Both the position numbers and the translations under genes were made by a program. From the IMG/VR virus record IMGVR_UViG_2541047794_000003: DNA of 32,443 nt; one strand, 5' to 3'. The stretch is from a virus (lineage: Duplodnaviria > Heunggongvirae > Uroviricota > Caudoviricetes). Position 1 is the stretch's first letter, and each line of letters opens with the position of its first letter. Shown here one piece after another: positions 4,931-17,759 of the stretch. The notes under the pieces were generated by a model. It was given only the letters and a program-made list of their open reading frames with translations. It made no database searches and had not been told where the DNA came from.

Positions 4931-5097
4931 GATGGCAGCCTCCGCGATGAATTTGATTAACTCACCACCGAGGTTTTCCACGACCATAAGGGTGGTGAGA
5001 CGTACAGGGGTGGAAATACCGGTCATCACGGAACCCGGCCAGCCTTGCGGCTGCCCTGCACGCCCCACCATAATGCGAATGTGGCTGTGCTTAACGC

Positions 5098-5122
5098 ATA
5101 AAAAAACCGCCTGAGCGCGGTT
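5098..5122 (-). terminator. Rho-independent terminator (minus strand) in early-left operon
   Basis: Perfect 6-bp stem AACCGC/GCGGTT with 6-nt loop followed (on minus strand) by a U-run; lies upstream of the Rha gene. Confidence 0.5.
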
Positions 5123-5799
5123 ATGCGCCGTGAATGATTTCGGGTTTCCACGCCCGGCACCCGTTTTATGAGGTGCAGGTGCACTATAATTCCACCCGTT
5201 CTGGTTTTCAATAGCTACATTCAACATTTTCTCTCACCTTTTCAGCGGAGTGAACTTTGTGATGCAGTGCCTGGTGCCTCCAGGTGACGTTAACCAGTTA
5301 ACAATTAACGCCGGATACAGAGAATCCACCCATAACACTGTTTTTGGTTTTAACTGTTCCGCGTGCGCTGAGCCGCATTCACCGCATCACAAAATTCACT
5401 TTAAAAAGGGCGGCAGAGCAGTCACGGAGTAAAACTGATACCGCCAAACGTCACCAGAAAATTGATAACAGAGGGCGTTGCAGCGGGGTTGTCACTTAAG
5501 CGTATGGTCAACCTGACAACCCGGTGTCCTCAACGGGGGAAGGAATAACCCCGCCATACTTACCGCCGCGCCATTTCGCGGATTGCCACAACCGGAAGCG
5601 CACGGTCGACGAAAATTTAACGACAGGCTATCTATGAACCAGCTACCTCGCCGTGCGCTTTCGCGTTATGGTCTGACTTTTCAGGGAAATATCCTTTCAG
5701 TAAACTGTCAGTGCCGGATTCTTATCCGTGTCCGGCGCACGACCACACGCTGTCACGAGAGGTCTCCATTCTCAACCAGTAACCTCAATGGAGGATAAA

Positions 5800-11084: not shown

Positions 11085-11771
11085 ATGACCCCAATAAAAA
11101 TATTTATGACTATTGCTGATTTCAAACGGCCTAAATTGGAGCTCCCAAACGGGGCAAACAAACTACTACTGCACTCTTGCTGTGCTCCATGTTCCGGTGA
11201 AGTGATGGAGGCGCTTCAGGCCTCGGGAATCGACTACACCATCTTTTTCTACAACCCGAACATTCATCCTCAGAAAGAGTATTTAATTCGTAAGGATGAA
11301 AATATTCGCTTTGCTGAACAACACGGCGTGCCGTTTATCGATGCTGATTACGACACCGACAACTGGTTTGAACGTGCCAAAGGAATGGAATGGGAGCCTG
11401 AGAGGGGGATCCGTTGTACCATGTGTTTTGACATGCGTTTTGAGCGGACAGCGTTGTACGCTGCTGAAAATGGTTTCAGTGTGATCAGCAGTTCACTGGG
11501 CATTTCACGCTGGAAAAATATGCAGCAGGTTAACGAGTGTGGGCGGCGAGCTGTTGCGCATTATCCGGGTATGGTGTACTGGGATTATAACTGGCGCAAG
11601 CAGGGCGGCTCGTCCCGTATGATTGAAATCAGCAAGCGCGAAAAATTCTATCAGCAGGAATATTGTGGCTGTGTGTATTCTCTGCGCGATACCAATCTAC
11701 ACCGCAAATCTCAGGGACGCCCTCTTATCAAAATTGGCCAACTCCACTACGGAAAAGAAGAGAAGGAGTGA
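11085..11771 (+). CDS. queH: DUF208-family protein, likely epoxyqueuosine reductase QueH-like
   Basis: 228-aa ORF with [11 protein letters not shown] motif and additional conserved Cys (CTMC, CGC) typical of DUF208/QueH. Confidence 0.55.
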
Positions 11772-11879
11772 TTTTATGGATCACCTTTCTGATTGATTTC
11801 ATATTGGCGAGGTGACGTGAGTTAAGTAGAATGGCTGCGGGTGCTTGAGGCTATCTGTCTCAGGCATGAACACTGAAAG

Positions 11880-11960
11880 GCAGATAGAGAAAAGCCCCAG
11901 TTAACATTTCGCGTCCTGCAAGACGCTTAACATTAATCTGAGGCCCAATCTATGTCTCAC
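11880..11960 (-). ncRNA. Candidate Sok-like antisense RNA of the hok locus (approximate bounds)
   Basis: Minus-strand region complementary to hok leader/mok start; contains GGGGCU hairpin element analogous to Sok 3' end; candidate promoter TTGCCT-N17-TAACCT on minus strand. Confidence 0.35.
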
Positions 11961-12008
11961 AAATGTAGGTTAGCCTCTTACGTGCCGAAAGGCAAGGGGA
12001 AGCAGGCT

Positions 12009-12164
12009 ATGAAGCAGCAAAAGGCGATGTTAATCGCCCTGATCGTCATCTGTTTAACCGTCATAGTGACGGCACTGGTAACGAGGAAAGACCTCTGCGA
12101 GGTACGACTCCGAACCGGCCAGACGGAGGTCGCTGTCTTCACAGCTTACGAACCTGAGGAGTAA
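12009..12164 (+). CDS. hok: Hok/Gef-family type I toxin (small membrane peptide)
   Basis: 51-aa ORF MKQQKAMLIALIVICLTVIVTALVTRKDLCEVRLRTGQTEVAVFTAYEPEE matching Hok family pattern; leader has tac/ucb-like elements; in-frame upstream ATG at 11952 (mok-like). Confidence 0.85.
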   Translation: MKQQKAMLIALIVICLTVIVTALVTRKDLCEVRLRTGQTEVAVFTAYEPEE

Positions 12165-12214
12165 GAGACCTGGCGGGGGAGAAATCCCTCGCCACCTCTG
12201 ATGTGTCAGGCATC

Positions 12215-12256
12215 CTCAACGCACCCGCACTTAACCCGGTTCGGCGGGTTTTGTTT
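12215..12256 (+). terminator. Terminator / fold-back element at hok mRNA 3' end
   Basis: Hairpin CCCGC...GCGGG followed by TTTTGTTTTTTT. Confidence 0.5.
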
Positions 12257-12331
12257 TTTTCTGGCATTCTGGTTTACAATTCGCACGTCAGCCTGAACAC
12301 CTGACACCTGCTGCGCCAGCAGAGAAAACAG

Positions 12332-12604
12332 ATGGCGCACAAAACCAAATTTCACAATTCTGATACCGACCTTGCCATCCGGCATGGGCGGCGTTCACAC
12401 GCATTTAAAACCGACTGGTACCAACACCCACCATGTACTGAAGAACAGGCCGAATGGCTAATTCATAACTACCGCAGACGCGGATACGAGATTAAGAAAG
12501 CCCTCAGCCTCGATTATCGTCACTGGATAATCTCCGTCAGGCTTCCTTACTCTGAACGCCCACCGCGTCCGTCCCGCACATTCCAGCAACGCATCTGGAG
12601 GTAA
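12332..12604 (+). CDS. Hypothetical 90-aa protein, translationally coupled to downstream DUF968 gene
   Basis: ATG at 12332; stop 12602-12604 within GGAGGTAACGTG so that its last codons carry the SD of the next gene. Confidence 0.5.
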   Translation: MAHKTKFHNSDTDLAIRHGRRSHAFKTDWYQHPPCTEEQAEWLIHNYRRRGYEIKKALSLDYRHWIISVRLPYSERPPRPSRTFQQRIWR

Positions 12605-16533: not shown

Positions 16534-16609
16534 GGCCCTTTAGCTCAGTGGTGAGAGCGAGCGACTCATAATCGCCAGGTCGCTGGTTCAAATCCAGCAA
16601 GGGCCACCA
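16534..16609 (+). tRNA. ileZ: tRNA-Ile (anticodon CAT, lysidine type; ileZ-like)
   Basis: 76-nt cloverleaf GGCCCTT...AAGGGCC-A-CCA; anticodon loop CTCATAA; near-identical architecture to E. coli tRNA-Ile2. Confidence 0.8.
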
Positions 16610-16616
16610 TCACATA

Positions 16617-16693
16617 CCGCCATTAGCTCATCAGGAAAGAGCGCCAGCCTTCGAAGCTGGTTGCGCGGAGTTCGGGTCCCCGAAGGCGGTCCA
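16617..16693 (+). tRNA. tRNA-Arg (anticodon TCG as read), atypical
   Basis: Cloverleaf with anticodon stem CCAGC/GCTGG and loop CTTCGAA; one mismatch in acceptor stem (A6:A67) and one in T-stem, T-loop TTCGGGT; ends CCA. Confidence 0.55.
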
Positions 16694-16706
16694 TTATCTG
16701 TATCCT

Positions 16707-16783
16707 GCGTTGTTAGCTCAGCCGGACAGAGCAATTGCCTTCTAAGCAATCGGTCACTGGTTCGAATCCAGTACAACGCGCCA
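16707..16783 (+). tRNA. argO: tRNA-Arg (anticodon TCT, reads AGA)
   Basis: Perfect acceptor stem GCGTTGT/ACAACGC, anticodon loop CTTCTAA, T-loop TTCGAAT, discriminator G, CCA. Confidence 0.8.
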
Positions 16784-16829
16784 CACTTATTTTCCCTGGC
16801 TCGCTTTTGTGGGCCTTTTTTTTAAATGT

Positions 16830-17045
16830 CTCACAATTTAGGCGGTTGACTGTTGTCTGGTTTGCGGGGAGTTTGTTAAAAGAAACTGGCATGGTGAATC
16901 CCCCTGTGCGGAGGGGCAATCAGCGAGTAGGTATATGGGATAATCGCGGATTCAGGTGCTGGTACTGAATTCACCGGGAGGCACCCGGCACCATGCAATG
17001 GCACATAGCGCCACTCTCCAGCCCCTCTCCGGAGGGGCTTTTCTG
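16830..17045 (+). repeat. Module A of tandem structured non-coding element (conserved arms GCATGGTG.../...CACCATGC, internal hairpins, terminator)
   Basis: CTCACAATT + TTGACT motif, conserved arm gcatggtgaatccccctgtgcggaggggc (16889-), arm ctgaattcaccgggaggcacccggcaccatgc (-16996), terminator CCCCTC tccg GAGGGG + T-run (17022-17045). Confidence 0.5.
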
Positions 17046-17297
17046 TGCCGGATACATCACAGTTTCTGGAACCTTAGGTACTACAGTATCAGTCAGGGTG
17101 CTATATTTTCAGATGTGATGAAAGCCTGTCAGCAGGCAGGGCGTATCGGAAATGACCCAGTAGAGAAAACGTTGACTCAGATACCGGTGCTGAGTTACCG
17201 GGAAACCGGCATCACATGACCGCTATCCTTCCAGGCCCATCCGCTCCGGTGGGCCTTTTTACTGCAGAAAACAGGTTCCCCGTTAAATGCTATGTTG

Positions 17298-17532
17298 CTC
17301 ACAATTCAGTAAGTTGACAGTTGCCTGTCAGACTGGGCATTTGTTAAAAAAATTTCGCATGGTGAATCCCCCTGAGCGGAGGGGCGACTGGTGACGGTAT
17401 AATCTCTGATTATCAAAACGAGAATGACGCGGGTTTAGTGGCACCGGGCTGAACTCACCGGGAGGCACCCGGCACCATGTGCATGATGATACAGATACGC
17501 GGCTTTAGCCCCTCTCCGGAGGGGTTTTCTTG
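17298..17532 (+). repeat. Module B, second copy of the same structured element with divergent core
   Basis: Same conserved arms (17357-17479) and same terminator (17507-17532); central ~60 nt unrelated to module A; preceded by terminator GGCCCA...TGGGCC+TTTTT (17234-17261). Confidence 0.5.
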
Positions 17533-17759
17533 TGGGCAAAAAAAGCCCGCGCTGGGAGACGCGGGCGGCAAGGAATAAACAATAAAACGTGAAGTAATAT
17601 TTCAGCTGGCGAATAATACCCCATAGTAATCACTCTGCGCAACTGCGCGGTCTTTTTCGAATTGCGGGCTGTCGTCTCTCTTCTGCCATTGTCCTGTAAC
17701 TTCCGGACTTCAGCCCGCTCCTTATTTTACTCACAATATTATCCCGGCCGGGAGGATTC

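What the first reader, a model, noticed from the sequence alone, without database searches (positions are those of the whole stretch)
11840..12260. hok/sok-type type I toxin locus with an in-frame upstream (mok-like) start
A 51-aa Hok-family toxin is preceded by a leader carrying GCTTGAGGCT...CTCAGG and GGCAGATAGA...AGCCCC elements like those I recall from plasmid R1 hok mRNA, and followed by a 3' fold-back/terminator hairpin. The upstream ATG (11952) that would correspond to mok is in the same frame as hok here, giving a 70-aa N-terminally extended form. An antisense Sok-like RNA is predicted on the minus strand around 11880-11960. The in-frame arrangement is seen directly; whether it differs from canonical mok/hok is from memory.
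Basis: partly seen in the sequence, partly recalled or inferred. Interest (0 to 1): 0.45.

Follow-up and report, generated by a model that had tools for sequence, protein, structure and literature searches.

The report
Ordinary prophage hok/mok/sok toxin–antitoxin locus
This is an intact, already-annotated copy of the well-known hok/sok RNA-controlled toxin–antitoxin module sitting in a lambda-like E. coli prophage, and its in-frame upstream start codon, although different from the textbook plasmid R1 case, is the commonest arrangement among its relatives.

Summary
Window 11839-12260 (+) is a complete hok-type transcript. It matches the Rfam 'sok' leader model (120.5 bits; gathering score 59). 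It encodes a 51-aa Hok/Gef peptide (Pfam 6e-23) at 12009-12164. An SD-preceded ATG at 11952 lies exactly 57 nt upstream and in frame, giving a 70-aa product. A Sok-like antisense gene is predicted at about 11960 to 11888 (-). The 5'/3' fold-back pairing and a terminator are also present.

The 521 bp around it are 100% identical to loci annotated hokD in many E. coli chromosomes. Both the 51-aa and 70-aa products are already in public databases on at least 1000 contigs each. [quoted passage not shown]

The in-frame mok start does differ from plasmid R1 (58 nt, out of frame). It is the same as K-12 mokC/hokC, which share a stop codon. Among 36 non-redundant relatives, 23 are in frame, 8 are +1, 4 have the mok stop overlapping the hok ATG, and 1 has lost the start. 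The frame relationship flips within clades and is not a novelty.

Verdict: real, intact, already known; low interest.

The parts
11804..11832 (+). hok promoter: -35 TTGGCG, 17-nt spacer, -10 TAGAAT. The transcript start is predicted at 11839.
   Evidence: Consensus scan, 9/12 matches. A TAnAAT box 7 nt upstream of the conserved GGGUGC 5' end is conserved in alignment A1.
11839..12260 (+). Full-length hok-type mRNA (about 420 nt).
   Evidence: Rfam model position 1 falls at 11839. The terminator ends near 12260. MFE is -170.8 kcal/mol, z = -6.45.
11839..11850 (+). tac-like 5' element, GGGUGCUUGAGG. It pairs with the 3' fbi-like element.
   Evidence: The MFE pairs nt 1-12 with 12214-12226. RNAalifold recovers columns 45-50 / 472-477, with U-A in 23 loci and C-G in 11.
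11851..11887 (+). 5' leader hairpin (CUAUCUGUCUCAG ... CUGAAAGGCAGAUAG).
   Evidence: Helix 2 has compensatory changes at columns 59/108.
11888..11960 (-). Predicted Sok-like antisense RNA, about 72 nt. Its 5' end is at about 11960 and overlaps the first 9 nt of the mok ORF. It has a hairpin and then UUUUCUCU.
   Evidence: By position it is homologous to the annotated K-12 sokC, whose 5' end is the 9th nt of mokC. The fold shows a roughly 14-nt 5' tail, a long hairpin and a U-run, z = -4.27. Expression was not tested.
11967..11995 (-). Predicted Sok promoter: -35 TTGCCT (11995 to 11990), 17-nt spacer, -10 TAACCT (11972 to 11967).
   Evidence: Read directly. Positions 11968-11997 are 30/30 identical to Sp5 probe YO-597. 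The Sp5 'pro-less' mutagenic primer YO-421 changes this hexamer. The strict sigma-70 scan does not detect it, because the -10 matches only 3/6.
11940..11954 (+). mok-position translation start: SD GAGG (11940-11943) and ATG (11952-11954).
   Evidence: The GAGGCC...ATG arrangement is conserved in 35 of 36 relatives.
11952..12164 (+). In-frame mok-position ORF: a 70-aa N-terminally extended Hok, MSHKCRLASYVPKGKGKQA + Hok.
   Evidence: The exact sequence is in public databases on at least 1000 contigs under Hok-family names.
11972..11981 (+). ucb-like box, AGCCUCUUAC.
   Evidence: CUCUUAC pairs with GUAAGAG in the RNAalifold consensus (columns 204-210 / 394-400). The pairing is nearly invariant, with 98.8% of cells paired.
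12009..12164 (+). hok CDS, 51 aa. Its SD-like AAGGGG lies at 11994-11999.
   Evidence: Pfam PF01848, E = 6.3e-23. It differs by one residue (I34L, 50 of 51 identical) from K-12 HokD. PGAP annotates it as hokD in identical loci.
12133..12144 (+). Segment that pairs with the hok start region (12007-12017), sequestering the hok AUG.
   Evidence: RNAalifold helix 7, columns 237-247 / 366-377, with three pairs showing compensatory change.
12161..12167 (+). dcb-like box, GUAAGAG, overlapping the hok stop codon.
   Evidence: helix 5.
12214..12226 (+). fbi-like 3' element, CCUCAACGCACCC.
12233..12260 (+). Intrinsic terminator: AACCCGGTTCGGCGGGTT followed by a T-run.

Best explanation
This is an intact hok/mok/sok type I toxin-antitoxin module of the prophage hokW/hokD type. 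It lies in the early-right region of a lambdoid prophage integrated next to ompW, between queH and the DUF968/rusA/Q genes.

A stable hok mRNA of about 420 nt is made from its own promoter. It is kept inert by pairing of its extreme 5' end (tac) with a 3' element (fbi), and by helices that cover the hok start. These structural features are shown here by fold and covariation.

The following steps are inferred from the R1 paradigm. Slow 3' trimming removes fbi and refolds the RNA. Ribosomes can then start at the mok-position AUG (11952) and, by translating through the hok ribosome-binding site, allow Hok synthesis. A short unstable antisense RNA (Sok, about 11960 to 11888 on the minus strand) pairs with the mok start region, blocks its translation and triggers RNase III cleavage. 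Toxin therefore appears only when Sok supply stops.

In this locus the mok AUG is in frame with hok. Ribosomes that start at mok must therefore make a 70-aa N-extended Hok rather than a separate Mok peptide.

By analogy with hokW-sokW of Sakai prophage 5, the likely biological role is to kill or permeabilise the host when the prophage is induced or lost.
For: - Family identity: Rfam RF01794 at 120.5 bits and Pfam HOK_GEF at 6e-23.
- Prior annotation: 100% identity to hokD-annotated loci in many E. coli chromosomes; a match covering at least 80% of the query in 3815 of 5426 genomes. Prophage context.
- Phage records annotate the same locus as MokW or as mok + hok.
- The hokW-sokW relative was shown experimentally to be a toxin plus an RNA antitoxin, activated on mitomycin C induction (PMC8621323). 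Its primers match the window leader, and the probe over the sokW promoter matches 30/30.
- The 5'-3' pairing appears in the MFE fold, z = -6.45.
- Consensus structure over 36 relatives: 96.7% of cells paired against about 40% with slid partners; 22 pairs with compensatory change against 11.1 +/- 1.8 in shuffles, 0 of 500 reaching the observed value.
- Sok geometry matches the annotated sokC and folds as expected.
- The requirement that mok be translated up to, but not beyond, the hok start comes from PMC9841398.
Against: - No expression or toxicity data exist for this exact allele.
- The Sok -10 hexamer (TAACCT) is weak and was missed by the strict promoter scan.
- The MFE of a 3'-truncated transcript did not reproduce R1's tac-ucb refolding; the 5' end re-paired with the AGCCCC element instead.
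- The NCBIfam Hok models scored below their curated cut-offs: 49.1 bits against 73, and 38 against 89.
- Chromosomal hok loci of K-12 are reported to be inactive (cited). Activity cannot be assumed from sequence alone.
Confidence: 0.93

Rival explanations
1. The locus is a decayed, non-functional chromosomal relic, like most K-12 hok loci. It retains sequence similarity but no longer works as a toxin-antitoxin system.
For: K-12 chromosomal hok loci are reported inactive. K-12 hokD shares homology with the window only from 11995 onward, so it has lost tac, the Sok target, the mok start and most of the Sok promoter. K-12 hokC has IS186 next to it and a divergent 3' fbi segment. One relative, L032, has lost the mok ATG.
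Against: All the regulatory parts are present and correctly spaced in the window: the hok promoter, tac, fbi, ucb/dcb, mok SD + ATG, hok SD + ATG, the Sok promoter stretch, the Sok terminator and the mRNA terminator. The closely related Sp5 hokW-sokW has the same layout and is functional.
Confidence: 0.08
2. The in-frame mok start is a selected feature. On this view the locus is designed to make a functionally distinct 70-aa Hok isoform, and this sets it apart from canonical hok/sok.
For: No stop codon lies between 11952 and 12164, so any initiation at 11952 must yield the 70-aa form. The in-frame arrangement is the majority state, 23 of 36. A much larger N-terminal fusion, mCherry-linker-HokB, was used to assay HokB toxicity, so an N-terminal extension is compatible with toxicity.
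Against: The frame state flips through single-nucleotide indels within several clades:
- hokD/W type: window, L003, L008 and L016 are in frame; L002, L009 and L014 are +1.
- hokC type: in frame, against 56 nt in L019 and L020.
- Erwinia: L051 and L052 are in frame; L049 and L050 are 56 nt.
- R1 type: L006 is in frame, against R1 itself at 58 nt.

That pattern argues against selection on the extension. Conservation of the 19 leader codons is explained by RNA-level constraints, since the Sok promoter, the ucb box and the hok SD overlap them. In R1, mok translation past the hok start is dispensable.
Confidence: 0.1
3. The biological role is anti-phage abortive infection or prophage stabilisation (post-segregational killing), rather than help with lysis on induction.
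For: R1 hok/sok stabilises plasmids and reduces T4 plating (summarised). hok genes are about four-fold enriched in prophages, and their function there is stated to be open (bioRxiv 10.1101/2025.08.07.668861).
Against: The only direct experiment on a prophage homologue found HokW produced on RecA-dependent induction, and roughly two-fold more phage released with the locus than without it. The roles are not mutually exclusive, and nothing in the sequence discriminates between them.
Confidence: 0.3

Closest known systems
hokW-sokW of Sakai prophage 5 (Sp5), E. coli O157:H7 (Takada et al. 2021, PMC8621323)
   Same: Both are lambdoid-prophage hok/sok loci with a 51-aa Hok. The leader is near-identical: the primers and probes align to the window, and the probe over the sokW promoter matches 30/30. 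Reconstructed from the primers, the Sp5 mok-position ATG is also 57 nt upstream and in frame.
   Different: The Hok C-terminus differs: Sp5 ends ...VFVDYESEK and the window ends ...VFTAYEPEE. There are a few leader substitutions, some of them compensatory within the 5' hairpin. The host prophage also differs (a prophage next to ompW rather than the Stx2 phage Sp5). No experiments exist on this allele.
hokC/mokC/sokC (gef) of E. coli K-12
   Same: The leader is homologous (RF01794, 118 bits). mokC and hokC share a stop codon, so they are in frame with a 57-nt offset, exactly as here. The position of sokC defines the expected Sok 5' end.
   Different: Nucleotide identity is about 75%. The window carries a 16-18-nt insertion in the Sok-target hairpin loop. 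In K-12 hokC the 3' fbi segment diverges next to IS186, whereas the window keeps an intact fbi.
hokD (relF) of the K-12 Qin prophage, the name PGAP gives this gene
   Same: The Hok proteins differ by one residue, I34L (50 of 51 identical). The 3' UTR, fbi and terminator are 97.7% identical, and both lie in a lambdoid prophage.
   Different: K-12 hokD homology starts only 14 nt upstream of the hok ATG. The tac element, Sok target, mok start and Sok promoter are replaced by relBE. The window is the complete form, and K-12 hokD is a truncated remnant of it.
hok/mok/sok of plasmid R1 (the paradigm)
   Same: The set of elements is the same: tac, fbi, ucb/dcb, mok, hok and Sok. An R1-type locus matches RF01794 at 87 bits and aligns along its length. 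Covariation supports a shared structure.
   Different: The R1 mok AUG lies 58 nt upstream of hok and is out of frame, giving a separate 70-aa Mok. Hok identity to R1 is reported as 44% for HokW and measured at 44.9% here. R1 is on a plasmid rather than a prophage.

Membership tests
[quoted passage not shown] | A Hok/Gef toxin of about 50 aa, with an N-terminal transmembrane helix and the conserved RKDLCE...TEVA.F.AYE domain. | tested here: met
   Pfam HOK_GEF, 80.6 bits, E = 6.3e-23, covering profile positions 1-42 of 42. The NCBIfam models are below their curated cut-offs, 49.1 bits against 73.
[quoted passage not shown] | A conserved structured mRNA leader from the 5' end to the hok AUG. | tested here: met
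   RF01794 covers model positions 1-157 in full, at 120.5 bits against a gathering score of 59. The same model hits K-12 hokC, an R1-type locus and the phage Rac locus, always on the hok-sense strand.
[quoted passage not shown] | A long-range tac (5' end) to fbi (3' end) pairing that closes the full-length mRNA. | tested here: met
   The MFE pairs 11839-11850 with 12214-12226. RNAalifold finds the same helix independently, with U-A in 23 loci and C-G in 11.
[quoted passage not shown] | An upstream mok reading frame with its own SD. It starts inside the Sok target and is translated across the hok ribosome-binding site. | tested here: met
   GAGG at 11940-11943 and ATG at 11952. The ORF is open through the hok SD and start. 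The position is conserved in 35 of 36 relatives.
[quoted passage not shown] | A cis-encoded antisense Sok RNA with its own promoter, a single-stranded 5' tail complementary to the mok start region, and a terminator hairpin. | tested here: met
   This was met in silico only. The position is homologous to the annotated sokC. The fold shows a tail, a hairpin and a U-run, z = -4.27. The promoter stretch is identical to that of Sp5 sokW. Transcription itself cannot be tested with these tools.
[quoted passage not shown] | The ucb/dcb complementary boxes. | tested here: met
   CUCUUAC (11975-11981) pairs with GUAAGAG (12161-12167) in the consensus structure, with 98.8% of cells paired. The boxes are nearly invariant, so there is little covariation to assess.
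[quoted passage not shown] | Hok is toxic and Sok neutralises it. | not testable with these tools
   This has been shown for the close relative hokW-sokW, but not for this allele.
R1-type hok/mok/sok specifically | mok out of frame with hok (58-nt offset), giving a separate 70-aa Mok peptide. | tested here: not met
   The window offset is 57 nt and in frame. The R1 offset of 58 nt comes from PMC9841398. This feature does not define the wider family: K-12 mokC/hokC are in frame.
R1-type hok/mok/sok specifically | After 3' processing, tac re-pairs with ucb and opens the mok start. | tested here: inconclusive
   tac GAGGCU (11847-11852) and ucb AGCCUC (11972-11977) are complementary. However, the MFE of the truncated RNA pairs the 5' end with AGCCCC instead.

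The most novel reading that the evidence does not exclude
In in-frame loci such as this one, Sok may control a toxic proteoform directly. Ribosomes that start at the mok AUG necessarily make a 70-aa N-extended Hok, which may itself insert into the membrane and kill. The 56/57/58-nt frame state, which flips by single-nucleotide indels between close relatives, would then act as a fast-evolving switch. It would change whether the locus makes one or two toxic products, and how tightly Hok is coupled to mok.
Probability: 0.2. Interest if true: 0.35.

Novelty: already known. Interest (0 to 1): 0.08.

Why it matters
It matters little as a discovery. The locus is annotated in thousands of E. coli genomes, and a close homologue has been characterised experimentally.

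The useful by-product is a clean statement that the mok/hok frame relation is not fixed in the family. In this sample it runs 23 in frame, 8 in the +1 frame and 4 with the stop overlapping the hok ATG, and it flips within clades. That fits the published view that only translation up to the hok start matters. It is also a caution against treating the R1 arrangement as canonical when annotating mok.

Tried and rejected
1. I tried to fetch plasmid R1 itself (KY749247). It is not in the collections. I used an IncFII plasmid encoding a Hok 100% identical to the R1 Hok sequence I queried from memory (L006), and took R1 coordinates from PMC9841398. L006 turned out to be in frame (57 nt), unlike R1.

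2. The strict sigma-70 scan found the hok promoter but not the Sok promoter. I placed the Sok promoter by homology to sokC and sokW instead.

3. The NCBIfam models did not reach their cut-offs. PGAP's 'HokD' name follows from near-identity to K-12 HokD, not from these models.

4. Folding a 3'-truncated transcript to reproduce the R1 tac-ucb refolding did not show it. I left this unresolved.

5. I assumed the whole window would be colinear with the O104:H4 prophage. It is a mosaic of blocks at 93-99% identity, so the window comes from a related prophage, not that exact one.

6. The Rfam hit is on the + strand, which might suggest a sense-strand 'sok' RNA. I rejected this. In K-12 the same model hits the hok-sense strand, while the annotated sokC lies on the opposite strand. 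The model therefore represents the leader.

7. A literature search for orf69/gef found no open-access text on the fate of the 69-aa MokC product.

Full report
**What is in the sequence**

- A 51-aa ORF lies at 12009-12164.
- An ATG at 11952 is in the same frame with no intervening stop, which gives a 70-aa ORF.
- A sigma-70-like promoter (TTGGCG, 17 nt, TAGAAT; 11804-11832) sits 7 nt upstream of 11839.
- An intrinsic terminator lies at 12233-12250, followed by a T-run.

**Is it more than chance?**

Yes.
- Rfam RF01794 ('sok') matches 11839-12014 over its whole length at 120.5 bits against a gathering score of 59, E = 3e-27.
- The 51-aa peptide matches Pfam HOK_GEF at E = 6e-23.
- The NCBIfam Hok models match but stay below their curated cut-offs.
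- The full transcript folds much better than shuffled versions, z = -6.45.

**Where it comes from**

The 521 bp around the locus are 100% identical to a locus annotated hokD in many E. coli chromosomes, among them O104:H4. A match covering at least 80% of the query occurs in 3815 of 5426 complete genomes.

The context is a lambdoid prophage integrated next to ompW. The gene order is cro-like, ydaT, a replication gene, queH, hok, DUF968, rusA, Q, all on the hok strand. The window is a mosaic relative of the O104:H4 prophage, with blocks at 93-99% identity and 99.2% over the 2.9 kb around hok.

Phage records annotate the same locus as 'MokW protein', 'host killer protein', or 'mok' plus 'hok'. 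Both the exact 70-aa and the exact 51-aa sequences are in public protein collections on at least 1000 contigs each, under Hok-family or HokD names.

**RNA anatomy**

In the MFE fold the first 12 nt (11839-11850, GGGUGCUUGAGG) pair with 12214-12226 (CCUCAACGCACCC). This is the tac-fbi fold-back of hok mRNAs.

I aligned 36 non-redundant hok transcripts from Escherichia, Shigella, Kluyvera, Citrobacter, Pseudocitrobacter, Photorhabdus, Pantoea and Erwinia, plus an R1-type plasmid. On that alignment RNAalifold independently recovers five elements:
- the 5'-3' helix, with U-A in 23 loci and C-G in 11;
- the 5' hairpin;
- the Sok-target hairpin;
- the nearly invariant CUCUUAC/GUAAGAG (ucb/dcb-like) pair;
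- a helix that covers the hok start codon.

Across the 64 consensus pairs, 96.7% of cells are paired, against about 40% when the partners are slid. Twenty-two pairs carry compensatory changes, against 11.1 +/- 1.8 in shuffles, and none of 500 shuffles reached the observed value.

**The antisense gene**

The Rfam 'sok' model is in the hok-sense orientation. In K-12 it hits the strand of hokC/mokC, while the annotated sokC lies on the opposite strand. The + strand hit here therefore identifies the leader, not the antisense RNA.

By position, sokC starts at the ninth nucleotide of mokC. That puts the predicted Sok 5' end at about 11960 on the minus strand. From there the minus strand folds as a roughly 14-nt single-stranded tail, a long hairpin and UUUUCUCU, z = -4.27. 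This gives an RNA of about 72 nt ending near 11888.

A candidate promoter is TTGCCT (11995 to 11990), 17 nt, TAACCT (11972 to 11967). The strict scan misses it. However, 11968-11997 is 30/30 identical to a probe over the sokW promoter region of Sakai prophage 5, and the Sp5 'promoter-less' mutagenic primer changes exactly this -10 hexamer.

**The frame question**

In plasmid R1 the mok AUG is at 116-118 and the hok AUG at 174-176. [quoted passage not shown] The window (57 nt, in frame) therefore does differ from R1.

It does not differ from the family at large:
- RefSeq K-12 mokC (16751-16960) and hokC (16751-16903) share a stop codon, so they are in frame.
- K-12 mokB/hokB and the phage Rac mok/hok are out of frame.
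- An alignment-anchored tally of the 36 loci gives 23 in frame (57 nt), 8 in the +1 frame (58 nt), 4 at 56 nt with the mok stop overlapping the hok ATG as AUGA, and 1 that has lost the ATG.

The state flips within clades:
- Among hokD/W-type loci, the window, L003, L008 and L016 are in frame, while L002, L009 and L014 are +1.
- Among hokC-type loci, most are in frame, while L019 and L020 are at 56 nt.
- In Erwinia both states occur.
- An IncFII plasmid encoding an R1-identical Hok is in frame.

The flips are single-nucleotide indels in the 57-nt leader. The in-frame state is therefore common and apparently neutral. Reconstructed from its primers, the experimentally studied Sp5 hokW locus is also in frame.

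**How it most likely works**

Two things are shown here: the closed 5'-3' structure and the occlusion of the hok start.

The remaining steps are inferred from the R1 paradigm (Thisted and Gerdes 1992, as cited):
- 3' trimming removes fbi, and the RNA refolds.
- Ribosomes start at the mok AUG and open the hok start region.
- Sok pairs with the mok start region, blocks it and triggers RNase III cleavage.
- Because Sok is unstable, toxin appears when its supply stops.

Because the frames coincide here, initiation at 11952 must produce a 70-aa N-extended Hok. Whether that form is toxic has not been tested. A large N-terminal mCherry fusion was used to assay HokB toxicity, so an N-terminal extension does not preclude it.

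For the biological role, the only direct data are from Sp5:
- HokW is toxic, and sokW neutralises it.
- sokW RNA disappears and HokW appears after RecA-dependent induction.
- The locus raises phage release about two-fold.

Post-segregational stabilisation or phage exclusion remain possible.

**Comparison with K-12 hokD**

The protein differs by one residue (I34L). K-12 hokD homology begins only 14 nt upstream of the ATG, and the rest of the leader is replaced by relBE. The window is the intact form, and K-12 hokD is a remnant of it.

**What did not work**

- R1 itself is not in the collections.
- A truncated-RNA fold did not reproduce tac-ucb refolding.
- The Sok promoter is not detectable by consensus scan alone.

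**Verdict**

This is a real, intact and already known hok/mok/sok locus of the prophage hokW/hokD type. The in-frame mok start is ordinary. Interest is low.

Noticed in passing
window 12147-12150: The Hok Tyr47 codon is TAC followed by G, which is the TACG motif of TadA A-to-I mRNA editing. Editing that recodes Tyr46 to Cys has been published for hokC, hokD and hokE (PMC5630033). UACGAA is invariant in all 36 aligned loci, including at synonymous positions.
   Followed up: partly
window 11085-12164 and the flanking early-right genes: hok is co-oriented with the prophage early-right operon, and the predicted Sok promoter faces into that transcription. No + strand terminator was found in the scanned stretch upstream of hok, 11700-12008. 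Read-through on induction could occlude the Sok promoter. Takada et al. state that the cause of sokW loss after mitomycin C is unknown.
   Followed up: no
window 11085-11771: An epoxyqueuosine reductase QueH homologue (Pfam 1e-65) is encoded inside the prophage, immediately upstream of hok.
   Followed up: no
window 16860-17050 and 17328-17537 (+); 16534-16780 (+): Two copies of the sRNA STnc100 (136 and 161 bits) lie just downstream of a three-tRNA cluster. The matching O104:H4 locus annotates the tRNAs as Ile, Arg, Arg. All of this lies in the late-regulatory region of the prophage.
   Followed up: no
window 4988-5459 (-): Three regulatory RNAs lie together near dicB: C4 antisense RNA (4988-5075), isrK (5100-5176) and DicF (5408-5459). 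All score above the Rfam gathering threshold.
   Followed up: no
L006 (NZ_CP128973.1, IncFII plasmid) 544-759: This plasmid encodes a Hok 100% identical to the R1 Hok sequence I queried from memory. Its mok-position ATG is 57 nt upstream and in frame, unlike R1's 58 nt. PGAP annotates only a shortened hok CDS there (658-759).
   Followed up: partly
window 12206-12385 (-): A 59-aa minus-strand ORF overlaps the hok 3' UTR and terminator. It is annotated 'hypothetical protein' or 'mobile element protein' in matching records. No support for it was looked for here, and it may be an annotation artefact.
   Followed up: no
window 11910-11926: Relative to hokC-type and Photorhabdus-type leaders, the hokD/W-type and Kluyvera-type leaders carry a 16-18-nt insertion (GCGUCCUGCAAGACGC). 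It forms an extra hairpin at the tip of the Sok-target / Sok-terminator stem.
   Followed up: no
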